From an uncultured Sphaerochaeta sp. (GTDB taxonomy: Bacteria > Spirochaetota > Spirochaetia > Sphaerochaetales > Sphaerochaetaceae), in NCBI GenBank assembly GCA_964527665.1, contig CAZGOK010000001.1:1-39657 (forward strand): 39,657 bases of DNA, written 5' to 3'. The notes under the pieces were generated by a model. That model was given only the letters and a program-made list of their open reading frames with translations, did no database searches and had not been told where the DNA came from. This document shows, piece after piece, positions 17,488-24,219 of this stretch. Made by a program: the position numbers and the translations under genes. The stretch's first letter is position 1; each line of letters begins with the position of its first letter.

Positions 17488-17778
17488 CTAGAAATCATCG
17501 TCATCATCGAGGTCATCGAGTGAAAAATCATCCTCGTCTTCCTCGTCGAAGACCACATCCTCAAACGACTCATCACCGTCGATCATGAAAGCGTCGTCGA
17601 TGAGCTCGTCCTCGTCTTCCTCACTGTCGAGAGGCTCGTCGTCATCATCGCCGAATTCAATTACCTCCGGGGCATCGTACAGGTCTGCCAAATAAGCATC
17701 TTCTTCATCTTCGAGCTTGCTGAAGTAACGATCTTCCTCATCATCGAGGTCTTCCTCTTCATCACGGTATTTAGCCAT
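17488..17778 (-). CDS. Small, extremely acidic protein (96 aa) of unknown function
   Basis: MAKYRDEEEDLDD...LDDDDDF; own promoter, AAGGAG SD and terminator. Confidence 0.85.
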   Translation of the reverse strand: MAKYRDEEEDLDDEEDRYFSKLEDEEDAYLADLYDAPEVIEFGDDDDEPLDSEEDEDELIDDAFMIDGDESFEDVVFDEEDEDDFSLDDLDDDDDF

Positions 17779-17819
17779 GTTCCTTCTCCTTGAAAAACTT
17801 CTCTTCCCTTCTAGGTATA

Positions 17820-17848
17820 ACAGTAAAAGATGCTCATTCACTTGTCAA
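17820..17848 (-). promoter_or_regulatory. Near-consensus sigma70 promoter of the acidic protein gene
   Basis: TTGACA-17-TACTGT. Confidence 0.7.
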
Positions 17849-17922: not shown

Positions 17923-18945
17923 ATGAGAAACAGAGACGAATATTTGGCCATTCCTATGGGCGATCCTGCGGGGATCGGGCCTGAGATACTCCTTAAAACA
18001 TTGATTGGTTCATCAGGATCACTGCATGTCGTAGTGGTGGGATCAGCACCTTTGTTCGCACAGACTGCAAAGGATTTGCACCTTGGGGGGGCTTTTGATG
18101 CTGTGGTGGATAACCTTGCCTCGTTGCAGGCTGCCCAAAGCGAAGGCCTCGGGCGCATCCTCTACAATATCGAAGGGGTGGACCTCACCCTGTTCGCCTA
18201 TGGGGAGGTCAGTGCCATGTGTGGCAAAGCCGCCTACGATGCTATCAGGATGAGTGTAACGCTGGTCAGCGAGGGGTACTGCAAGGCGATCGTAACCCCA
18301 CCTCTGCATAAGGAGGCGTTGCAAGCGGCAAAGATTCCACATATCGGCCATACGGAAATTCTTGCCCACCTCACCGGCTCAAAGGAAGCGGTAACCATGT
18401 TCGATACCTTGGGGATGAAGATCTTCTTCCACACCAGGCATCTCTCCCTTTCGGATGCGTGCAAGGCAGTCACCAAGGAGAGCCTGTTGAAGACCATCCT
18501 CCTGTGCGATGCCATACTTTCCTCGAACAGCGTCTTTGACAAGGCCCTGCCCATGGCTGTAGCCGGGCTCAACCCCCACTGTGGAGAGCACGGACTCTTT
18601 GGAGATGAGGAAGGTGTGGCCATCGAGCCTGCCATTGCCGAGGCAAGGGCAAGGGGGGTCAATGTGGTCGGTCCCATCGGTGCCGACTCGGTATTTCACC
18701 AGACCAAAGTGGGCAGGTACAGCTGCGCCATCTCGCTCTACCATGACCAGGGGCATATCGCGGCAAAGACCTTGGATTTTCACCAGACCATATCCATCAC
18801 CTGGGGTTTGCCCTTTTTGCGCACCAGTGTGGACCATGGCACAGCATTCGATATAGCAGGCAAGGGCATAGCTGATAACCGGGGCATGGCAAGAGCCATA
18901 CAGGTAGCCTCTGAGTATCTGGCTTCTGAGGAGGGGCTTTCATGA
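17923..18945 (+). CDS. pdxA: PdxA-family dehydrogenase (4-hydroxythreonine-4-phosphate or D-threonate-4-phosphate)
   Basis: MGDPAGIGPE, GHTE, GLNPHCGE, YHDQGH, RTSVDHGTAFDIAG. Confidence 0.93.
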   Translation: MRNRDEYLAIPMGDPAGIGPEILLKTLIGSSGSLHVVVVGSAPLFAQTAKDLHLGGAFDAVVDNLASLQAAQSEGLGRILYNIEGVDLTLFAYGEVSAMCGKAAYDAIRMSVTLVSEGYCKAIVTPPLHKEALQAAKIPHIGHTEILAHLTGSKEAVTMFDTLGMKIFFHTRHLSLSDACKAVTKESLLKTILLCDAILSSNSVFDKALPMAVAGLNPHCGEHGLFGDEEGVAIEPAIAEARARGVNVVGPIGADSVFHQTKVGRYSCAISLYHDQGHIAAKTLDFHQTISITWGLPFLRTSVDHGTAFDIAGKGIADNRGMARAIQVASEYLASEEGLS

Positions 18946-20141
18946 AGAAACAAACAGTTCTCGGTATAATGAGTTTGGTGGCGGCCCTGGTCCTCACCTC
19001 GTGTGCAACATCAATACAGGTGCGACACCTCGTCCCTAGCGAAGTTGATGTCAGCCAACACCGTACCATTGCCATCGGTTCCACCAGCATGTATACCTTC
19101 CCCCGGGGCTCGACGCTCCCACCTTGGATAAAGGGCTCCAGTGATACCTCCTTCACCCTCAGCAGCGGCTTCAATCAGAGTGTCAACGCAAAAGTAGCGG
19201 ATGCAAGCACGGCATTCCTCGCCGATGCCATGGTAAACACCGAGTACTTCACCGTCCTGCCCCCTGAGACCACCGATGCCTACCTTATCCTGGCAAAGAG
19301 TGGTGAGGATTCCTATGCCATGCTCAGGAAGAAGGGCGTTGATGCCCTGCTACAGAGCTCCATCACGTACATGAACTGCGAAGAGCAGATCATAGGAAGG
19401 GATATCAAGGAGTGGGTCACAGAAGATCCTGCACCCAAAACACCTGATCCTGGAGATCCTCCCTATGTTCCAAAAATAATAACCTACGAGAAGGTGACAG
19501 GGCGCTCATACTTTCTTGAACAGAAGGCCACAATTACCTTTACCTATACTCTCATAGACCTGCATGCCAATAGGATCCTCGCCACACAGAGCTTCACGCT
19601 ACAGAAATCTCAGGAGACGTGCCTGGGCAAGACCATCTTTGGATCAGGCTCTGAAAGCCGGGATAAGAGTGAGCGTTGCTACTCCAGTGGATTCGCTCCC
19701 TCCTTCTTCCCTCTCTTTAATGCGATGGTCAAGGAGATCCCTGCTACAATTGCCAGGCAGCTTGCCCCCTCATGGACTGAATCGAGAGTCTCCCTGATGG
19801 CGAACAAACCCAAGGCTGATGTCGACCATGCGTACAAGATGGCTGAAAAGGGTGATCTCAGAGGCGCTTATGCAGTGTTCAACCAGATGTGGGAGCAAAA
19901 TCTTCACACACCGAGTGGGTATAATGCAGCCTTGTTGCTTGAAGGCCTTGGCCAGTATTGTGAAGCCCTCGCCCTGATGAACGAGGTGTACAACAAAAGC
20001 GGGGACCCAAAGAGCCATGACCAGCTGATACGGCTCAAAGCAGTCGTCAGCCAGCAGGAGCAGGCTATGAAGCAGATTGACGGGAGTGTAGATCTTGTCG
20101 ATGGGAAGATGATCAAAACACAAATAGTGACGGCACAATGA
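18942..20141 (+). CDS. Lipoprotein with C-terminal TPR-like helices
   Basis: Lipobox LTSC; YNAALLLEGLGQY.EAL TPR-like pattern. Confidence 0.75.
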   Translation: MKKQTVLGIMSLVAALVLTSCATSIQVRHLVPSEVDVSQHRTIAIGSTSMYTFPRGSTLPPWIKGSSDTSFTLSSGFNQSVNAKVADASTAFLADAMVNTEYFTVLPPETTDAYLILAKSGEDSYAMLRKKGVDALLQSSITYMNCEEQIIGRDIKEWVTEDPAPKTPDPGDPPYVPKIITYEKVTGRSYFLEQKATITFTYTLIDLHANRILATQSFTLQKSQETCLGKTIFGSGSESRDKSERCYSSGFAPSFFPLFNAMVKEIPATIARQLAPSWTESRVSLMANKPKADVDHAYKMAEKGDLRGAYAVFNQMWEQNLHTPSGYNAALLLEGLGQYCEALALMNEVYNKSGDPKSHDQLIRLKAVVSQQEQAMKQIDGSVDLVDGKMIKTQIVTAQ

Positions 20142-20764: not shown

Positions 20765-21400
20765 ATGGGCCTTTGTGATTTTCATTGTCACCTATTACCT
20801 CAGATTGATGACGGCTATGTCGCACTTGAGGGTTTCTCCCGGATGTTGAGCCTCTACAAAGAGAGTGGGGTATCAACCCTTGCCTTTACGCCCCATATCT
20901 ACAATCCGTACGTGACAACCAATATCGGGTCACTGCGAGAGACGTTTGCATGGGCCTCTAAGGTGGCTTTGGATATGGGGATGGTCACGTACCTGGGTAG
21001 CGAGCTTTTTGTAGGCACCCAGGAGGAGTTGAAGTGCATTCCGATAGCAGACAAATACTGCCTGGTCGAGTTTGGCCTCTCTCTTCCCCCGGCAAACCTC
21101 ATCCCGCGCCTGGAGAAGCTGACAGGGGAAGGCCTTACCTTAATTCTAGCCCATGTGGAGAGGTATCGTTGGCTGACACCCACGAACTCCGCGTTGGAGC
21201 GCCTTCTTGCCCTTGGGGCACTGGTGCAGGTGAATGTTGAGGCCGTTGAGGATGGTTCCGCTTTGCCCTACCTTGAGGCAGGTCTGGTGGACCTTATTGC
21301 AACGGATAACCATGGTGATGAGACGCTTCCTAATCGTATGCTTGCTGTCCTGAATGAGTGGCCAGAGGTTTACAAGAAGATGGAAGGGATGATTGTATGA
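20765..21400 (+). CDS. PHP-family protein tyrosine phosphatase (CpsB/CapC-like)
   Basis: DFHCHLLPQIDDG, TPH, LVEF, LAHVERY, ATDNH. Confidence 0.9.
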   Translation: MGLCDFHCHLLPQIDDGYVALEGFSRMLSLYKESGVSTLAFTPHIYNPYVTTNIGSLRETFAWASKVALDMGMVTYLGSELFVGTQEELKCIPIADKYCLVEFGLSLPPANLIPRLEKLTGEGLTLILAHVERYRWLTPTNSALERLLALGALVQVNVEAVEDGSALPYLEAGLVDLIATDNHGDETLPNRMLAVLNEWPEVYKKMEGMIV

Positions 21401-21434: not shown

Positions 21435-22682
21435 ATGCTGCTTGATATGACTATTGCGAACTTCAAGTCCGTACAGTCTGCACAGACTATTTCGTTTGAA
21501 GCTGTCAGGGACAATAGGTTTCCCGAGTCAAAAGTGGTCTCAGTCAACGATAAGCTCAAACTTATCAAGACTGCAGCCATCATAGGGCCAAACGGAGCTG
21601 GAAAGAGCTCTTTTGTCAGGGCACTTGAGGCTTTGAAAGGGATAGTGACTGCACCTGAAGATACGGTGAACCCGTTGCAGATTCTCAGCGGGACCTCATT
21701 TGCCTACTCTGATGAGAAGGGCAAACCGGCCACCATCATCATCAGGGTGGTGATGGAACAGGGTGATGAGACGCAGGATTCCACCATTGCCATCTATACC
21801 CTGGTCGCTGACCGGGAGAAGATCTATGAGGAGTCCATGTTCAGCATGATCGGTCGGTCAAAGCGGCTTATGTTTGAGCGCAAGCTCAATGAGGCCTCCC
21901 TGCTGCTCGATGATGCGGACCTCGCATACAAGTACCGCTTCGGTAAGAACTACCGTGGGGAGAAGAAGCGTCTCGTCGACAAGGTTGACGAAAAGCACTC
22001 CTTCCTGACCGCTTCGATGGAAAAGGGCAGTGAGACCACCCTCCCTCTCTACACCTGGATCAACGAGTGCCTGCACCTGTTGCCCATGGGTGTTTCCAGC
22101 CTTAGTGAGAAGTACCTCATCGCCCAGCTGACCGAGCATCCCACCTGGGTAAAACAGCTGACCAACTTCCTGTGGAGTGTGGATATCACCGACATCCGAG
22201 ACATCAAGATCAAGGATGACCGCCTTATCTTTGTCCACACCAACGTCACCCAGCACTACGCATCATACTTCTCCTTGGAGAGTTTGAGTCTCAGGCGTCT
22301 TTGCCTGGTCGGTGTTGCTTTCTTTGAGAGCTTCATCAAACCCAGGACCCTGATCATTGATGACTTCGGCATGTTGCTGCACCCCTATGTGCTGGCGCAC
22401 ATCGTGGAGATCTTTGAGGCGAGCAATACCGGCTATGGATCGCAGATGCTTGCCGTCGACTGCAACCCCTCGCTGCTGCAACCCGGCCTGATGAGGCGTG
22501 ATGGCATCTACTTTGCTGAGAAGAACAGCGAGAGTGCAACTGTCTACTACAGCCTTGCCAACTACAAGTACTCCAAGAACAGGGATAAGACCCAGTCCCA
22601 GTATATGAACGGAGCTTTTGGTTCGCTACCGATCCTTTCAGAGTTTTACTTTGTTGACGACAATACGGACAAGGAGGTCTGA
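21435..22682 (+). CDS. RloA/AbiLi-like ABC-type (AAA_21) ATPase with degenerate hydrolysis motifs
   Basis: N-terminal IANFKS, Walker A GPNGAGKS, IIDD...LHP, RRDGIYFAEK, C-terminal YMNGAFGSLP. Confidence 0.85.
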   Translation: MLLDMTIANFKSVQSAQTISFEAVRDNRFPESKVVSVNDKLKLIKTAAIIGPNGAGKSSFVRALEALKGIVTAPEDTVNPLQILSGTSFAYSDEKGKPATIIIRVVMEQGDETQDSTIAIYTLVADREKIYEESMFSMIGRSKRLMFERKLNEASLLLDDADLAYKYRFGKNYRGEKKRLVDKVDEKHSFLTASMEKGSETTLPLYTWINECLHLLPMGVSSLSEKYLIAQLTEHPTWVKQLTNFLWSVDITDIRDIKIKDDRLIFVHTNVTQHYASYFSLESLSLRRLCLVGVAFFESFIKPRTLIIDDFGMLLHPYVLAHIVEIFEASNTGYGSQMLAVDCNPSLLQPGLMRRDGIYFAEKNSESATVYYSLANYKYSKNRDKTQSQYMNGAFGSLPILSEFYFVDDNTDKEV

Positions 22683-22684
22683 CC

Positions 22685-23326
22685 ATGGCACGCAAAAAAA
22701 TATCTAACAAGCCGCGCAGGACTATCCTGATAGTTACAGCCACCGAAGCTGAAGCTCTCTATTTCTCCCAGATGCGCAAGGATTGCCGTTATTCCAATCT
22801 CACTGTGGTGTGGGAGCAGGAGTTCAAGGATCTTGAGAATCTGATCAACCTCGCATCGCGCTATCGCAATACGGGCAACTACTCGGTTGTCTGGGTCCTG
22901 TTTGGCCTTGCCGATCTTGCCATTGCACCTTCTGAGGTGAAGAGGCTGCTTCCACATGCCAAAAAGAAGAAGGTGTCCCTATCGTGGACCAACCCCTCCA
23001 TGCCTCTTTGGTATCTGTTGCACCTGCAGACCCCACGGGGATTTGTCGGTGAGCCCTCCCTGATAACGAGCGCTTTGGAAAAATCCCTTCCAGGCTTTAC
23101 CCCTGATGCCTCCTATCTCCTGACTGAGGGCATGTACCTGCATCTGAAGCTCTATCCTGCCAAGGCTAAGGCTTCCCTCAATGCAAGTGCCTATAACAGG
23201 CTGGTGGAGAAGGACCTTGGGCTTGCCGCCATATCACTGGTGCCGCTGCTGAATGATATTACTGAGATCTGCGGGCTTGCAGACCTTACTCATAATCAGA
23301 AGCAGTTGGGTATGCACAAGGGGTAG
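22685..23326 (+). CDS. RloB/AbiLii-like protein with degenerate TOPRIM-like motifs
   Basis: Basic N-terminus, ILIV....E..YF, VWVLF, TNPSMPLWYLLH; 2 nt after the RloA-like gene. Confidence 0.8.
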   Translation: MARKKISNKPRRTILIVTATEAEALYFSQMRKDCRYSNLTVVWEQEFKDLENLINLASRYRNTGNYSVVWVLFGLADLAIAPSEVKRLLPHAKKKKVSLSWTNPSMPLWYLLHLQTPRGFVGEPSLITSALEKSLPGFTPDASYLLTEGMYLHLKLYPAKAKASLNASAYNRLVEKDLGLAAISLVPLLNDITEICGLADLTHNQKQLGMHKG

Positions 23327-23331
23327 GAGTG

Positions 23332-24219
23332 GTGAATGGATTGACTTTACTGGTCTATATGATTTCGTTTGCCCTAGGCTGTATGACGCTGGCACTAGCC
23401 ATCGTCTACAGCATGCATACCTCCCATCACTGGACCAAATTCTTCATTATCTGCCATGCATCCCTGTTGGGATGCATGATACTCTTGGCCCTGCAGCTAA
23501 TCTCGGCCCTCTTCCTTACCGGAATAGCCTCTGTGGTTGTGGGCTACGTGATCGGGTCGGTCTTCATCGCTGATGTGGCCTTCTTGACAGTATTCCTGCC
23601 GTACTTCACCACTTGGGTGATAGCACACCCCTGGAGGAATCCCTATAAGACAATTTTTACCCTGCTTGGCCTTGTCTACCTCTCTCTTGGAGTCTTCCAT
23701 GGCATTACCGGCAGCAAGACCCTCGATGACCTGATGATCTTGCTGTTCGTCTTTGTAGTGGGGTTCTGCCTAATCATCATGCTCAAGAACCTCTCATCCA
23801 TTGAGAACAAGACTGCCAGGGCAACGTGCATCACCATCATCATCGTCGGTGCCGCCATGCTGCCCTCCATCCTGCTCTCCCTGTTTTTCCCAACTATCAA
23901 GCCTCTGATGTACGGGGTGTATTTCCTTGCCTTCTCCATCACTGTGATGACATTCCTGTTCCTGGAGTTCGTCAGGCTGGCCAGAGAGGGGGCCATCGGA
24001 AAGAAAGACCTTGCCCTGGAGGACCTTGGCCTCTATCATATCACCGAGAGGGAGTTTGCCGTGATCCAGCTGGTAAGCAATGGTATGACAAACAAGGAGA
24101 TAGCTGCAGACCTTGGCATCAGTGCCAATACGGTGAACAACCACGTGGCCAATATCTTCTCCAAGACAAAGGTACGCAGTAGAATAGACTTGCTTAATCT
24201 TCTCAAGCAATCGTGGTAA
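23332..24219 (+). CDS. Membrane-anchored LuxR-type regulator (about 7 TM helices plus C-terminal HTH)
   Basis: Hydrophobic N-terminal ~210 aa; ITEREFAVIQLVSNGMTNKEIAADLGISANTVNNHVANIFSK. Start uncertain (23329, 23332 or 23341). Confidence 0.9.
   Translation: MNGLTLLVYMISFALGCMTLALAIVYSMHTSHHWTKFFIICHASLLGCMILLALQLISALFLTGIASVVVGYVIGSVFIADVAFLTVFLPYFTTWVIAHPWRNPYKTIFTLLGLVYLSLGVFHGITGSKTLDDLMILLFVFVVGFCLIIMLKNLSSIENKTARATCITIIIVGAAMLPSILLSLFFPTIKPLMYGVYFLAFSITVMTFLFLEFVRLAREGAIGKKDLALEDLGLYHITEREFAVIQLVSNGMTNKEIAADLGISANTVNNHVANIFSKTKVRSRIDLLNLLKQSW

What the first reader, a model, noticed from the sequence alone, without database searches (positions are those of the whole stretch)
21435..23326. 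RloA/RloB (AbiL-type) pair in which both partners look catalytically disarmed
Seen in RloA: Walker A is intact (GPNGAGKS), but the signature region reads ESLSLRRL, Walker B reads IIDDFG and the switch region reads VDCNP. Seen in RloB: IVTATEAE, VWVLFGLAD and TNPSMPLW. Known, from my recollection of family consensus: RloA/AAA_21 proteins usually have ESxGT, hhhDE and TTH at these sites, and RloB has CEG..TE..YF, VFDxD and SNPxFE.W as its TOPRIM-like acidic centre. On that basis the ATPase catalytic Glu, signature Gly and switch His are all replaced, and RloB has lost its first Glu, the DxD and the later Glu. Both ORFs are full length, 2 nt apart and have good SDs. Composition is host-like (one hand-counted 60-nt line was 57% GC) and no mobile element is nearby. 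Inference: an anti-phage toxin/ATPase module has been domesticated into a pseudo-enzyme pair, such as an ATP-binding scaffold, sensor or decoy, rather than decaying.
Basis: partly seen in the sequence, partly recalled or inferred. Interest (0 to 1): 0.75.

Follow-up and report, generated by a model that had tools for sequence, protein, structure and literature searches.

The report
Disarmed defence pair kept by spirochaetes
Two genes related to a phage-triggered cell-suicide system lack the residues their relatives keep for cutting nucleic acid and turning over ATP, yet are strongly conserved at one chromosomal spot in three spirochaete lineages, so they likely now form a harmless ATP-bound complex with a cellular job, predicted to involve binding DNA or RNA.

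Summary
The pair is AbiL/RloAB-like. RloA has Walker B Glu→Asp in 49 of 49 clade members (Glu in 172 of 177 other RloA) and no switch His. RloB lacks the first TOPRIM Glu in 49 of 49 and the first DxD Asp in 47 of 49.

These are not pseudogenes: dN/dS is 0.04 and 0.09. The orthologue is in 188 of 201 Sphaerochaetaceae genomes and in two related orders (6 of 6, 5 of 7), sits at one locus, and is inherited mostly vertically.

Refinements: RloB looks dead, because its old catalytic columns drift, though its second Glu is kept. RloA looks re-tuned, because its new residues are fixed, so it is likely a slow ATP-holding ATPase. Signature Gly→Ser and the last RloB Glu loss are mostly family-specific. 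New features are a basic patch, a shortened arm and two RloB cysteines. The flanking phosphatase follows Wzc, and LuxR is independent of the pair.

Best reading: a domesticated, non-lytic complex, possibly binding nucleic acid; function untested. Literature searches found no description. This scan noted the same system before on another genome (e1-3004724).

The parts
21435..22682 (+). RloA/AbiLi-like ABC ATPase of Rad50/SMC fold, 415 aa, with non-canonical catalytic motifs
21585..21608 (+). Walker A GPNGAGKS, Lys intact; changed from the family's usual GANASGKSN (A54→G in 49 of 49)
21927..21983 (+). Basic patch, residues 165-183; median net charge +5 to +6.5 in the clade against +1 in other RloA; candidate nucleic-acid contact (inferred)
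22182..22238 (+). Shortened arm D250-H268: median 19-24 aa in the clade against 47-48 aa in other RloA
22278..22301 (+). Signature region ESLSLRRL; Ser kept, Gly→Ser in 40 of 49 (all 39 Sphaerochaetaceae rows plus 1)
22353..22370 (+). Walker B IIDDFG; catalytic Glu→Asp in 49 of 49
22455..22469 (+). Switch region VDCNP; His→Cys (39), Val (9) or Ser (1)
22685..23326 (+). RloB/AbiLii-like TOPRIM-type protein, 213 aa; keeps 1 of 5 canonical acidic residues (E23)
22730..22798 (+). IVTATEAE plus the clade motif YFSQMRKDCRY.N: first Glu lost, E23 kept, C34 in 45 of 49
22889..22915 (+). Former DxD site, now FGLAD
22988..23011 (+). Former SNPxFExW site, now TNPSMPLW
23270..23299 (+). Clade-specific C-terminal motif CG.AD..HNQ; C196 in 49 of 49 (CGxC in the two other lineages)
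20765..21400 (+). Neighbour, not a needed part: CpsB/CapC PHP phosphatase whose presence follows the Wzc kinase rather than the pair
23329..24219 (+). Neighbour, not a needed part: hydrophobic LuxR-family regulator, kept without the pair in 3 of 3 pair-less genomes

Best explanation
This AbiL/RloAB-type pair lacks its relatives' nuclease and fast-ATPase residues yet is conserved as a chromosomal core locus, so it was likely domesticated once into a non-lytic complex in which RloA is predicted to hold ATP as a slowly turning head dimer, RloB is predicted to be a nuclease-dead bound subunit, and the complex would bind nucleic acid through a new basic patch. Shown: the substitutions, their fixation, purifying selection, distribution, synteny and independence from the neighbours. 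Inferred from related enzymes: loss of cutting, slow hydrolysis, and a persistent A-B complex like the locked PARIS Walker B mutant. Weakly inferred: DNA or RNA as the ligand, and a role as an ATP-state-dependent clamp or regulator. I put 'domesticated and non-lytic' at about 0.7; the nucleic-acid-binding step alone is about 0.35.
For: Residues. Walker B E→D in 49 of 49 against E in 172 of 177; switch His in 0 of 49 against 162 of 177. Clade RloB keep 0-3 of five canonical acids, other RloB keep 4-5. In Ts OLD, removing DxD plus the late Ser/Glu abolishes nicking even with the first two acids left (PMC7049728); this RloB lacks E19, D74, D76 and E107. In PARIS, Walker B E393Q and AriB E90A or E26A each abolish defence, and E393Q keeps AriB bound. 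Selection. Median dN/dS 0.041 (95 of 435 pairs usable) and 0.089 (106 of 435); D310 uses both Asp codons and is never Glu. Distribution. 188 of 201 family genomes, 6 of 6 and 5 of 7 genomes of two other orders, and no other carrier among 401 class genomes. One clade, support 1.0. RloA distances track GluRS (r 0.74, rate 1.2x; 13 of 18 strong splits shared). Kept in 1.2-Mb genomes directly before gltX without the other neighbours. Only distant (<60% identity) hits on plasmids and phages, while a canonical RloA hits 173 plasmid records. New constrained features: basic patch, short arm, C34/C196. Precedent for recruitment: Cran1 (PMC12796447).
Against: No activity, binding or phenotype was measured. 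RloB keeps E23 (43 of 49) and often has E21 and D77; all three are acidic in 21 of 39, 5 of 6 and 4 of 4 rows, which could form another metal site. In the two other lineages E23 and E107 are both mostly kept, and single-site OLD mutants still nick. Non-canonical Walker B also occurs in a defence system (Menshen NsnB DE→EN), GajA is described as defending without hydrolysis, and 5 of 133 distant RloA representatives lack both the Glu and the His. The pair is not universally needed: it is absent from the gltX locus in 4 of 4 genomes of a related family and in 3 small Sphaerochaetaceae genomes that form one clade. 4 of 18 strong RloA splits conflict with GluRS. RloB overall charge does not differ from canonical RloB (median pI 9.3 against 9.1).
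Confidence: 0.62

Rival explanations
1. A rewired but active enzyme pair. RloA hydrolyses ATP with a D309-D310-D342 arrangement, and RloB binds metal through E21/E23/D77 or its cysteines to nick or process a specific cellular nucleic acid, as the domesticated archaeal OLD protein Cran1 does.
For: D310 and, in Sphaerochaetaceae, D342/C343/N344 are invariant rather than drifting. E21, E23 and D77 are frequent. OLD ATPases are active with non-canonical motifs, and single metal-site mutants still nick. Glu→Asp sites hydrolyse slowly.
Against: The RloB acids are not invariant in Sphaerochaetaceae: E23 33 of 39, D77 27 of 39, and 3 rows keep none of the five canonical acids. The H-loop His is essential in Ts OLD and is absent in all 49, replaced differently between lineages.
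Confidence: 0.17
2. Still a defence part: a sensor or decoy that binds phage DNA mimics for an effector encoded elsewhere, or a resident antidote that neutralises incoming mobile AbiL toxins.
For: AriA senses acidic DNA mimics with basic residues, and this RloA gained a basic patch. Canonical RloA/RloB pieces occur in the same genome on small contigs, three of five low in GC. Defence ATPases with odd motifs exist.
Against: Housekeeping-like rate and vertical descent across three orders are unlike defence genes; canonical RloB is patchy in other families. No active effector is conserved nearby. The arm region is shortened. Canonical RloB copies in relatives are only 22-29% identical.
Confidence: 0.12
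3. The pair is the signalling core of a five-gene regulatory cassette with the PHP phosphatase, the LuxR membrane regulator and the hydrolase.
For: Tight gene spacing and frequent adjacency in all three lineages.
Against: The phosphatase (132 of 201) follows Wzc (138 of 201) genus by genus, not the pair: in one genus 10 and 9 of 46 against 46 of 46; in another 0 and 0 of 4 against 4 of 4. wzc-PHP stands without the pair in 4 of 4 loci of a related family, and LuxR stands without the pair in 3 of 3. The pair stands without a LuxR orthologue in 4 of 5 genomes tested. The whole neighbourhood, tRNA synthetases included, is syntenic.
Confidence: 0.07
4. Recently inactivated, decaying defence genes.
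For: Catalytic residues are lost.
Against: dN/dS 0.04 and 0.09; full-length frames in the loci examined; identical substitutions across orders.
Confidence: 0.01

Closest known systems
AbiL (AbiLi/AbiLii) of Lactococcus and Campylobacter RloAB
   Same: Two-gene order, Rad50/SMC-type ATPase plus RloB TOPRIM protein; best PADLOC hits AbiLi and AbiLii; many shared RloA motifs (ES, LHP, RRD, YxxGxxGAxP).
   Different: Walker B Glu, switch His and TOPRIM E/DxD lost; arm shortened; new basic patch and cysteines; core chromosomal and vertical instead of patchy and plasmid-borne. The mechanism of AbiL itself is still open (PMC13064643).
PARIS (AriA/AriB)
   Same: ABC ATPase plus separate TOPRIM protein. 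The natural substitutions fall on the kinds of site whose mutation (E393Q, E26A, E90A) switches PARIS off.
   Different: A different family: AriA model 45 bits against AbiLi 182.5; no AriB hit for RloB. PARIS is active and toxic.
Cran1, archaeal class 5 OLD ATPase-nickase (PMC12796447)
   Same: A defence-family ATPase/TOPRIM recruited to a cellular role.
   Different: Cran1 is one catalytically active polypeptide in archaea; here two proteins with lost catalytic residues in bacteria.
Degenerate nucleotide-binding sites of ABC exporters
   Same: Walker B Glu→Asp with H-loop and signature deviations; ATP is held and hydrolysed slowly (PMC7756269).
   Different: Those sit beside a consensus site in a transporter. 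Here one clade copy per genome implies that both sites of a homodimer would be degenerate, and no membrane domain is attached.
RecF/RecR (recalled: weak SMC-like ATPase with a non-cutting TOPRIM partner)
   Same: Architectural analogy only, from memory.
   Different: Not a replacement: RecF and RecR are present in 5 of 5 carrier genomes.

Membership tests
AbiL/RloAB | Adjacent AbiLi-like and AbiLii/RloB-like genes | tested here: met
   adjacent in all wide clade loci examined
AbiL/RloAB | Rad50/SMC-type ABC ATPase fold | tested here: met
   model pLDDT 81.6; best Foldseek hits Rad50, E 7e-9
AbiL/RloAB | TOPRIM/OLD fold of the second protein | tested here: inconclusive
   VIA-align: OLD 6p74 Z 8.5, rmsd 3.8, 132 aligned, tied with unrelated Rossmann-like folds; GajA Z 7.0 and Bp OLD Z 6.9 also listed; Foldseek nothing at E<=0.001. 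Sequence homology to RloB is firm.
AbiL/RloAB | Walker B Glu and switch His | tested here: not met
   0 of 49 for each, against 172 and 162 of 177
AbiL/RloAB | TOPRIM Glu plus DxD | tested here: not met
   E19 0 of 49, D74 2 of 49; all three absent in this protein
AbiL/RloAB | Patchy, mobile occurrence | tested here: not met
AbiL/RloAB | Abortive infection phenotype | not testable with these tools
   needs phage assays
PARIS | AriA and AriB family membership | tested here: not met
   AbiLi far outscores AriA; no AriB hit
PARIS | Hexameric ATPase that releases its effector on binding a DNA mimic | not testable with these tools
   oligomer and trigger binding not modelled
Degenerate ABC nucleotide site | Walker A intact, Walker B Glu→Asp, altered H-loop or signature | tested here: met
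   definition
Degenerate ABC nucleotide site | ATP bound but hydrolysed slowly | not testable with these tools
   needs biochemistry

The most novel reading that the evidence does not exclude
An abortive-infection toxin-ATPase module was captured once by an ancestor of several spirochaete orders, and both halves were converted into a pseudo-enzyme machine: a natural ATP-locked SMC-like head dimer with a nuclease-dead TOPRIM subunit that binds DNA or RNA (possibly under metal or redox control by its new cysteines) in a near-essential housekeeping process of the coccoid spirochaetes.
Probability: 0.3. Interest if true: 0.85.

Novelty: new variant of a known kind. Interest (0 to 1): 0.62.

Why it matters
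It is a clean natural case of a defence toxin and its ATPase being disarmed together and kept as core genes over order-level time. That makes the route from defence system to housekeeping machine testable in culturable hosts. It offers a probably non-toxic, naturally locked AbiL-type complex for the structure that the family lacks (no RloB relative among solved structures by sequence). It also warns that defence-annotation profiles match this locus in nearly every Sphaerochaetaceae genome although the effector looks dead.

Tried and rejected
Complex prediction of RloA with RloB gave no verdict: scores 0.52/0.54/0.49, but one unrelated control scored 0.48; not used as evidence either way.

Replacement of RecF, RecR or SMC was rejected: RecF and RecR are over the cut-off in 5 of 5 carrier genomes, SMC matches 5 of 5 (4 over the cut-off). 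RNase M5 was found in 0 of 5; uninformative, as the family rang in only 4 of 14 control genomes.

Coupling to the phosphatase, Wzc or LuxR was rejected as obligatory.

An obligate C34-C196 pair is not supported by co-loss: 4 rows lack C34 and keep C196.

The Q-loop is not diagnostic: it is variable in canonical RloA too. The promoter and terminator scan was at chance level. PDB sequence searches gave only P-loop matches and no RloB. The Atlas, run with homologue P0144, returned only RloB clusters. The RpoB tree is the quick one; the careful search did not finish. No remnant of the pair in four gap stretches beyond one 31-residue match at E 0.002. Wide-locus dN/dS had only 0-4 usable pairs per gene and was set aside.

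Full report
Observation. Both ORFs, their 2-nt spacing, ribosome-binding sites and all quoted motifs are as described. They match AAA_21 and RloB in Pfam above the curated cut-offs, and AbiLi and AbiLii in PADLOC. The RloA model is a Rad50-like ABC head. The RloB model gives a middling match to OLD nuclease, Z 8.5, tied with unrelated folds. Close homologues carry the source label Sphaerochaeta, so family f1 is taken as Sphaerochaetaceae.

Comparators. Sets were chosen by profile score, not by motif. The clade set is 49 non-redundant loci: 39 from f1, 6 from f7, 4 from f71. Other RloA number 177: 133 of the 150 library representatives, plus 44 from loci. Left out were 1 clade query, 6 high-scoring rows and 10 rows under 380 aa. 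Other RloB number 46, from the loci, with duplicates, split and short ORFs left out. Three comparator pairs scanned score 279-316 bits on AbiLi and 87-110 on AbiLii, so the comparators are AbiL-family members. The experimentally tested Lactococcus sequences were not in hand.

RloA residues. Walker A Lys is kept everywhere. Walker B Glu is Asp in 49 of 49, against Glu in 172 of 177. The switch His is Cys (39), Val (9) or Ser (1), against His in 162 of 177. Signature Gly is Ser in 40 and Gly in 9, against Gly in 177 of 177. In the 120 best homologues, these columns are invariant in 119, with one gap. D310 uses both Asp codons and never Glu, so Asp is selected. Against the reading, 5 of 133 distant representatives lack both Glu and His.

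RloB residues. E19 is lost in 49 of 49 and D74 in 47 of 49; D76 is Asp in 11 and E107 is Glu in 13; E23 is kept in 43. These old catalytic columns vary freely, unlike RloA's. Ts OLD uses E377/D431/D433 and D381/S478/E480; single-site mutants still nick, but the DxD plus Ser/Glu mutant does not (PMC7049728). Mapping these onto E19/D74/D76 and E23/S102/E107 is my inference from motif order and the start of the structural alignment. On that mapping this RloB should not cut. The f7 and f71 proteins, which mostly keep E23 and E107, are less certain. E21 and D77 are often acidic and leave room for another metal site.

Distribution. In one search, 193 of 201 family genomes match. By my count of the table 184 match at E<=1e-98 and 4 more at 1e-36 to 1e-73 (taken as partial); 5 have only weak hits and 8 none. 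That gives 188 of 201. RloB is in 23 of 24 genus relatives. The clade also fills two other orders: 6 of 6 and 5 of 7, with 4 of 4 at >=90% completeness. In 401 class genomes only these three families match strongly, and a 301-genome phylum draw gave only weak hits outside the own genome. Plasmids and phages hold only distant relatives.

Selection and descent. Among 30 genus-level loci, median dN/dS is 0.041 for RloA (95 of 435 pairs with dS 0.05-1.5), 0.089 for RloB (106 of 435) and 0.098 for the phosphatase (83 of 406), by my own NG86 script. The clade is one branch, support 1.0, with a long stem. Over 35 loci, RloA evolves at 1.2 times the rate of GluRS; 13 of 18 strong splits are shared and 4 conflict. 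A quick RpoB tree joins f1, f7, f71, f70 and f75 (SH-aLRT 94), with f7 and f71 as sisters as in the RloA tree, and groups three pair-less f1 genomes. f70 lies between the carriers and lacks the pair at the same wzc-PHP-gltX locus in 4 of 4 genomes. One gain with losses is the simplest reading; an ancient transfer is not excluded. The pair is therefore widely kept but dispensable in some lineages.

Neighbours. The usual order is PHP-A-B-LuxR-hydrolase-gltX in f1 and wzc-PHP-A-B in f7 and f71. The phosphatase follows Wzc by genus, not the pair. LuxR occurs without the pair, and the pair without a LuxR orthologue. Two genomes of 1.2 Mb keep only A-B-gltX. The unit is A plus B. This departs from a five-gene cassette reading.

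What is new in the clade. A basic patch at RloA 165-183, a much shorter D250-H268 arm, a changed Walker A, and in RloB the motif QMRKDCRY.N and a C-terminal CG. That the patch lies where Rad50-type heads contact DNA is recalled and judged from secondary-structure order only; it was not tested.

Mechanism. In PARIS the Walker B mutant loses hydrolysis and defence and keeps AriB bound (bioRxiv 10.1101/2024.01.02.573835); the AriB active-site mutant is non-toxic (PMC11464382). Glu→Asp ABC sites hold ATP and hydrolyse slowly (PMC7756269). I therefore expect a stable, non-lytic complex of an ATP-holding RloA and a nuclease-dead RloB, with nucleic acid as the likeliest ligand. The first part is well grounded by analogy; the ligand is a guess. 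The rivals are a rewired active enzyme, a defence sensor or antidote, and a regulatory cassette.

Literature. Searches for RloB/AbiL terms, Sphaerochaeta with RloB (0 papers), domestication terms and Sphaerochaeta core genes found no description of this clade. The library lacks most subscription papers, and no supplements were read; supplementary tables of defence-system surveys or of the spirochaete pangenome preprint could list these genes. Seen as passages only: PMC10440598, PMC11464382, PMC13064643, the PARIS preprint, PMC12409363, PMC7756269, PMC12065111, PMC12236494 (no mention of RloB). Seen as passages plus one section: PMC7049728. Seen as abstract plus Discussion: PMC12796447. The original AbiL paper was not seen. 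An earlier AI note of this scan on another genome reached the same domestication reading; it is not independent support.

Verdict. Real, ancient and under strong selection; a new variant of the AbiL/RloAB kind that fails the family's catalytic and mobility tests. Function is unproven. Interest 0.62.

Noticed in passing
window 20765-21400; G000:C19 (L165:1067-3703): The CpsB-type PHP phosphatase is the only one found in this assembly, and its likely partner Wzc lies on another contig. In f7, f71 and f70 the two are adjacent, so the kinase-phosphatase pair was split in Sphaerochaetaceae but is still co-retained.
   Followed up: yes
G000:C613, C453, C534, C353, C200: Fragments of canonical RloA/RloB with intact motifs lie on small contigs of the same genome; three have GC of 0.38-0.42.
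   Followed up: partly
P0256, P0284, P0308, P0359, P0360: Distant RloA representatives that separately lack both Walker B Glu and switch His; possible independent degenerate lineages.
   Followed up: no
L152:4656-6098: An f71 RloA carries an in-frame Ala/Gly/Thr repeat insertion of about 46 residues after the Walker A helix.
   Followed up: no
window 18942-20141: A 399-aa lipoprotein-like ORF with no Pfam hit, syntenic in 32 f1 loci and kept in pair-less genomes.
   Followed up: no
window 17488-17841 (- strand): A very acidic 117-aa ORF; a similar acidic ORF family recurs at this position in 7 related loci.
   Followed up: no
G154:C1 (several places): One genome has six copies of the CpsB-type phosphatase, where all others listed have one.
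   Followed up: no
L206, L207, L208: The three pair-less Sphaerochaetaceae genomes have longer RpoB frames (1313-1341 aa against about 1190) and form one clade.
   Followed up: no
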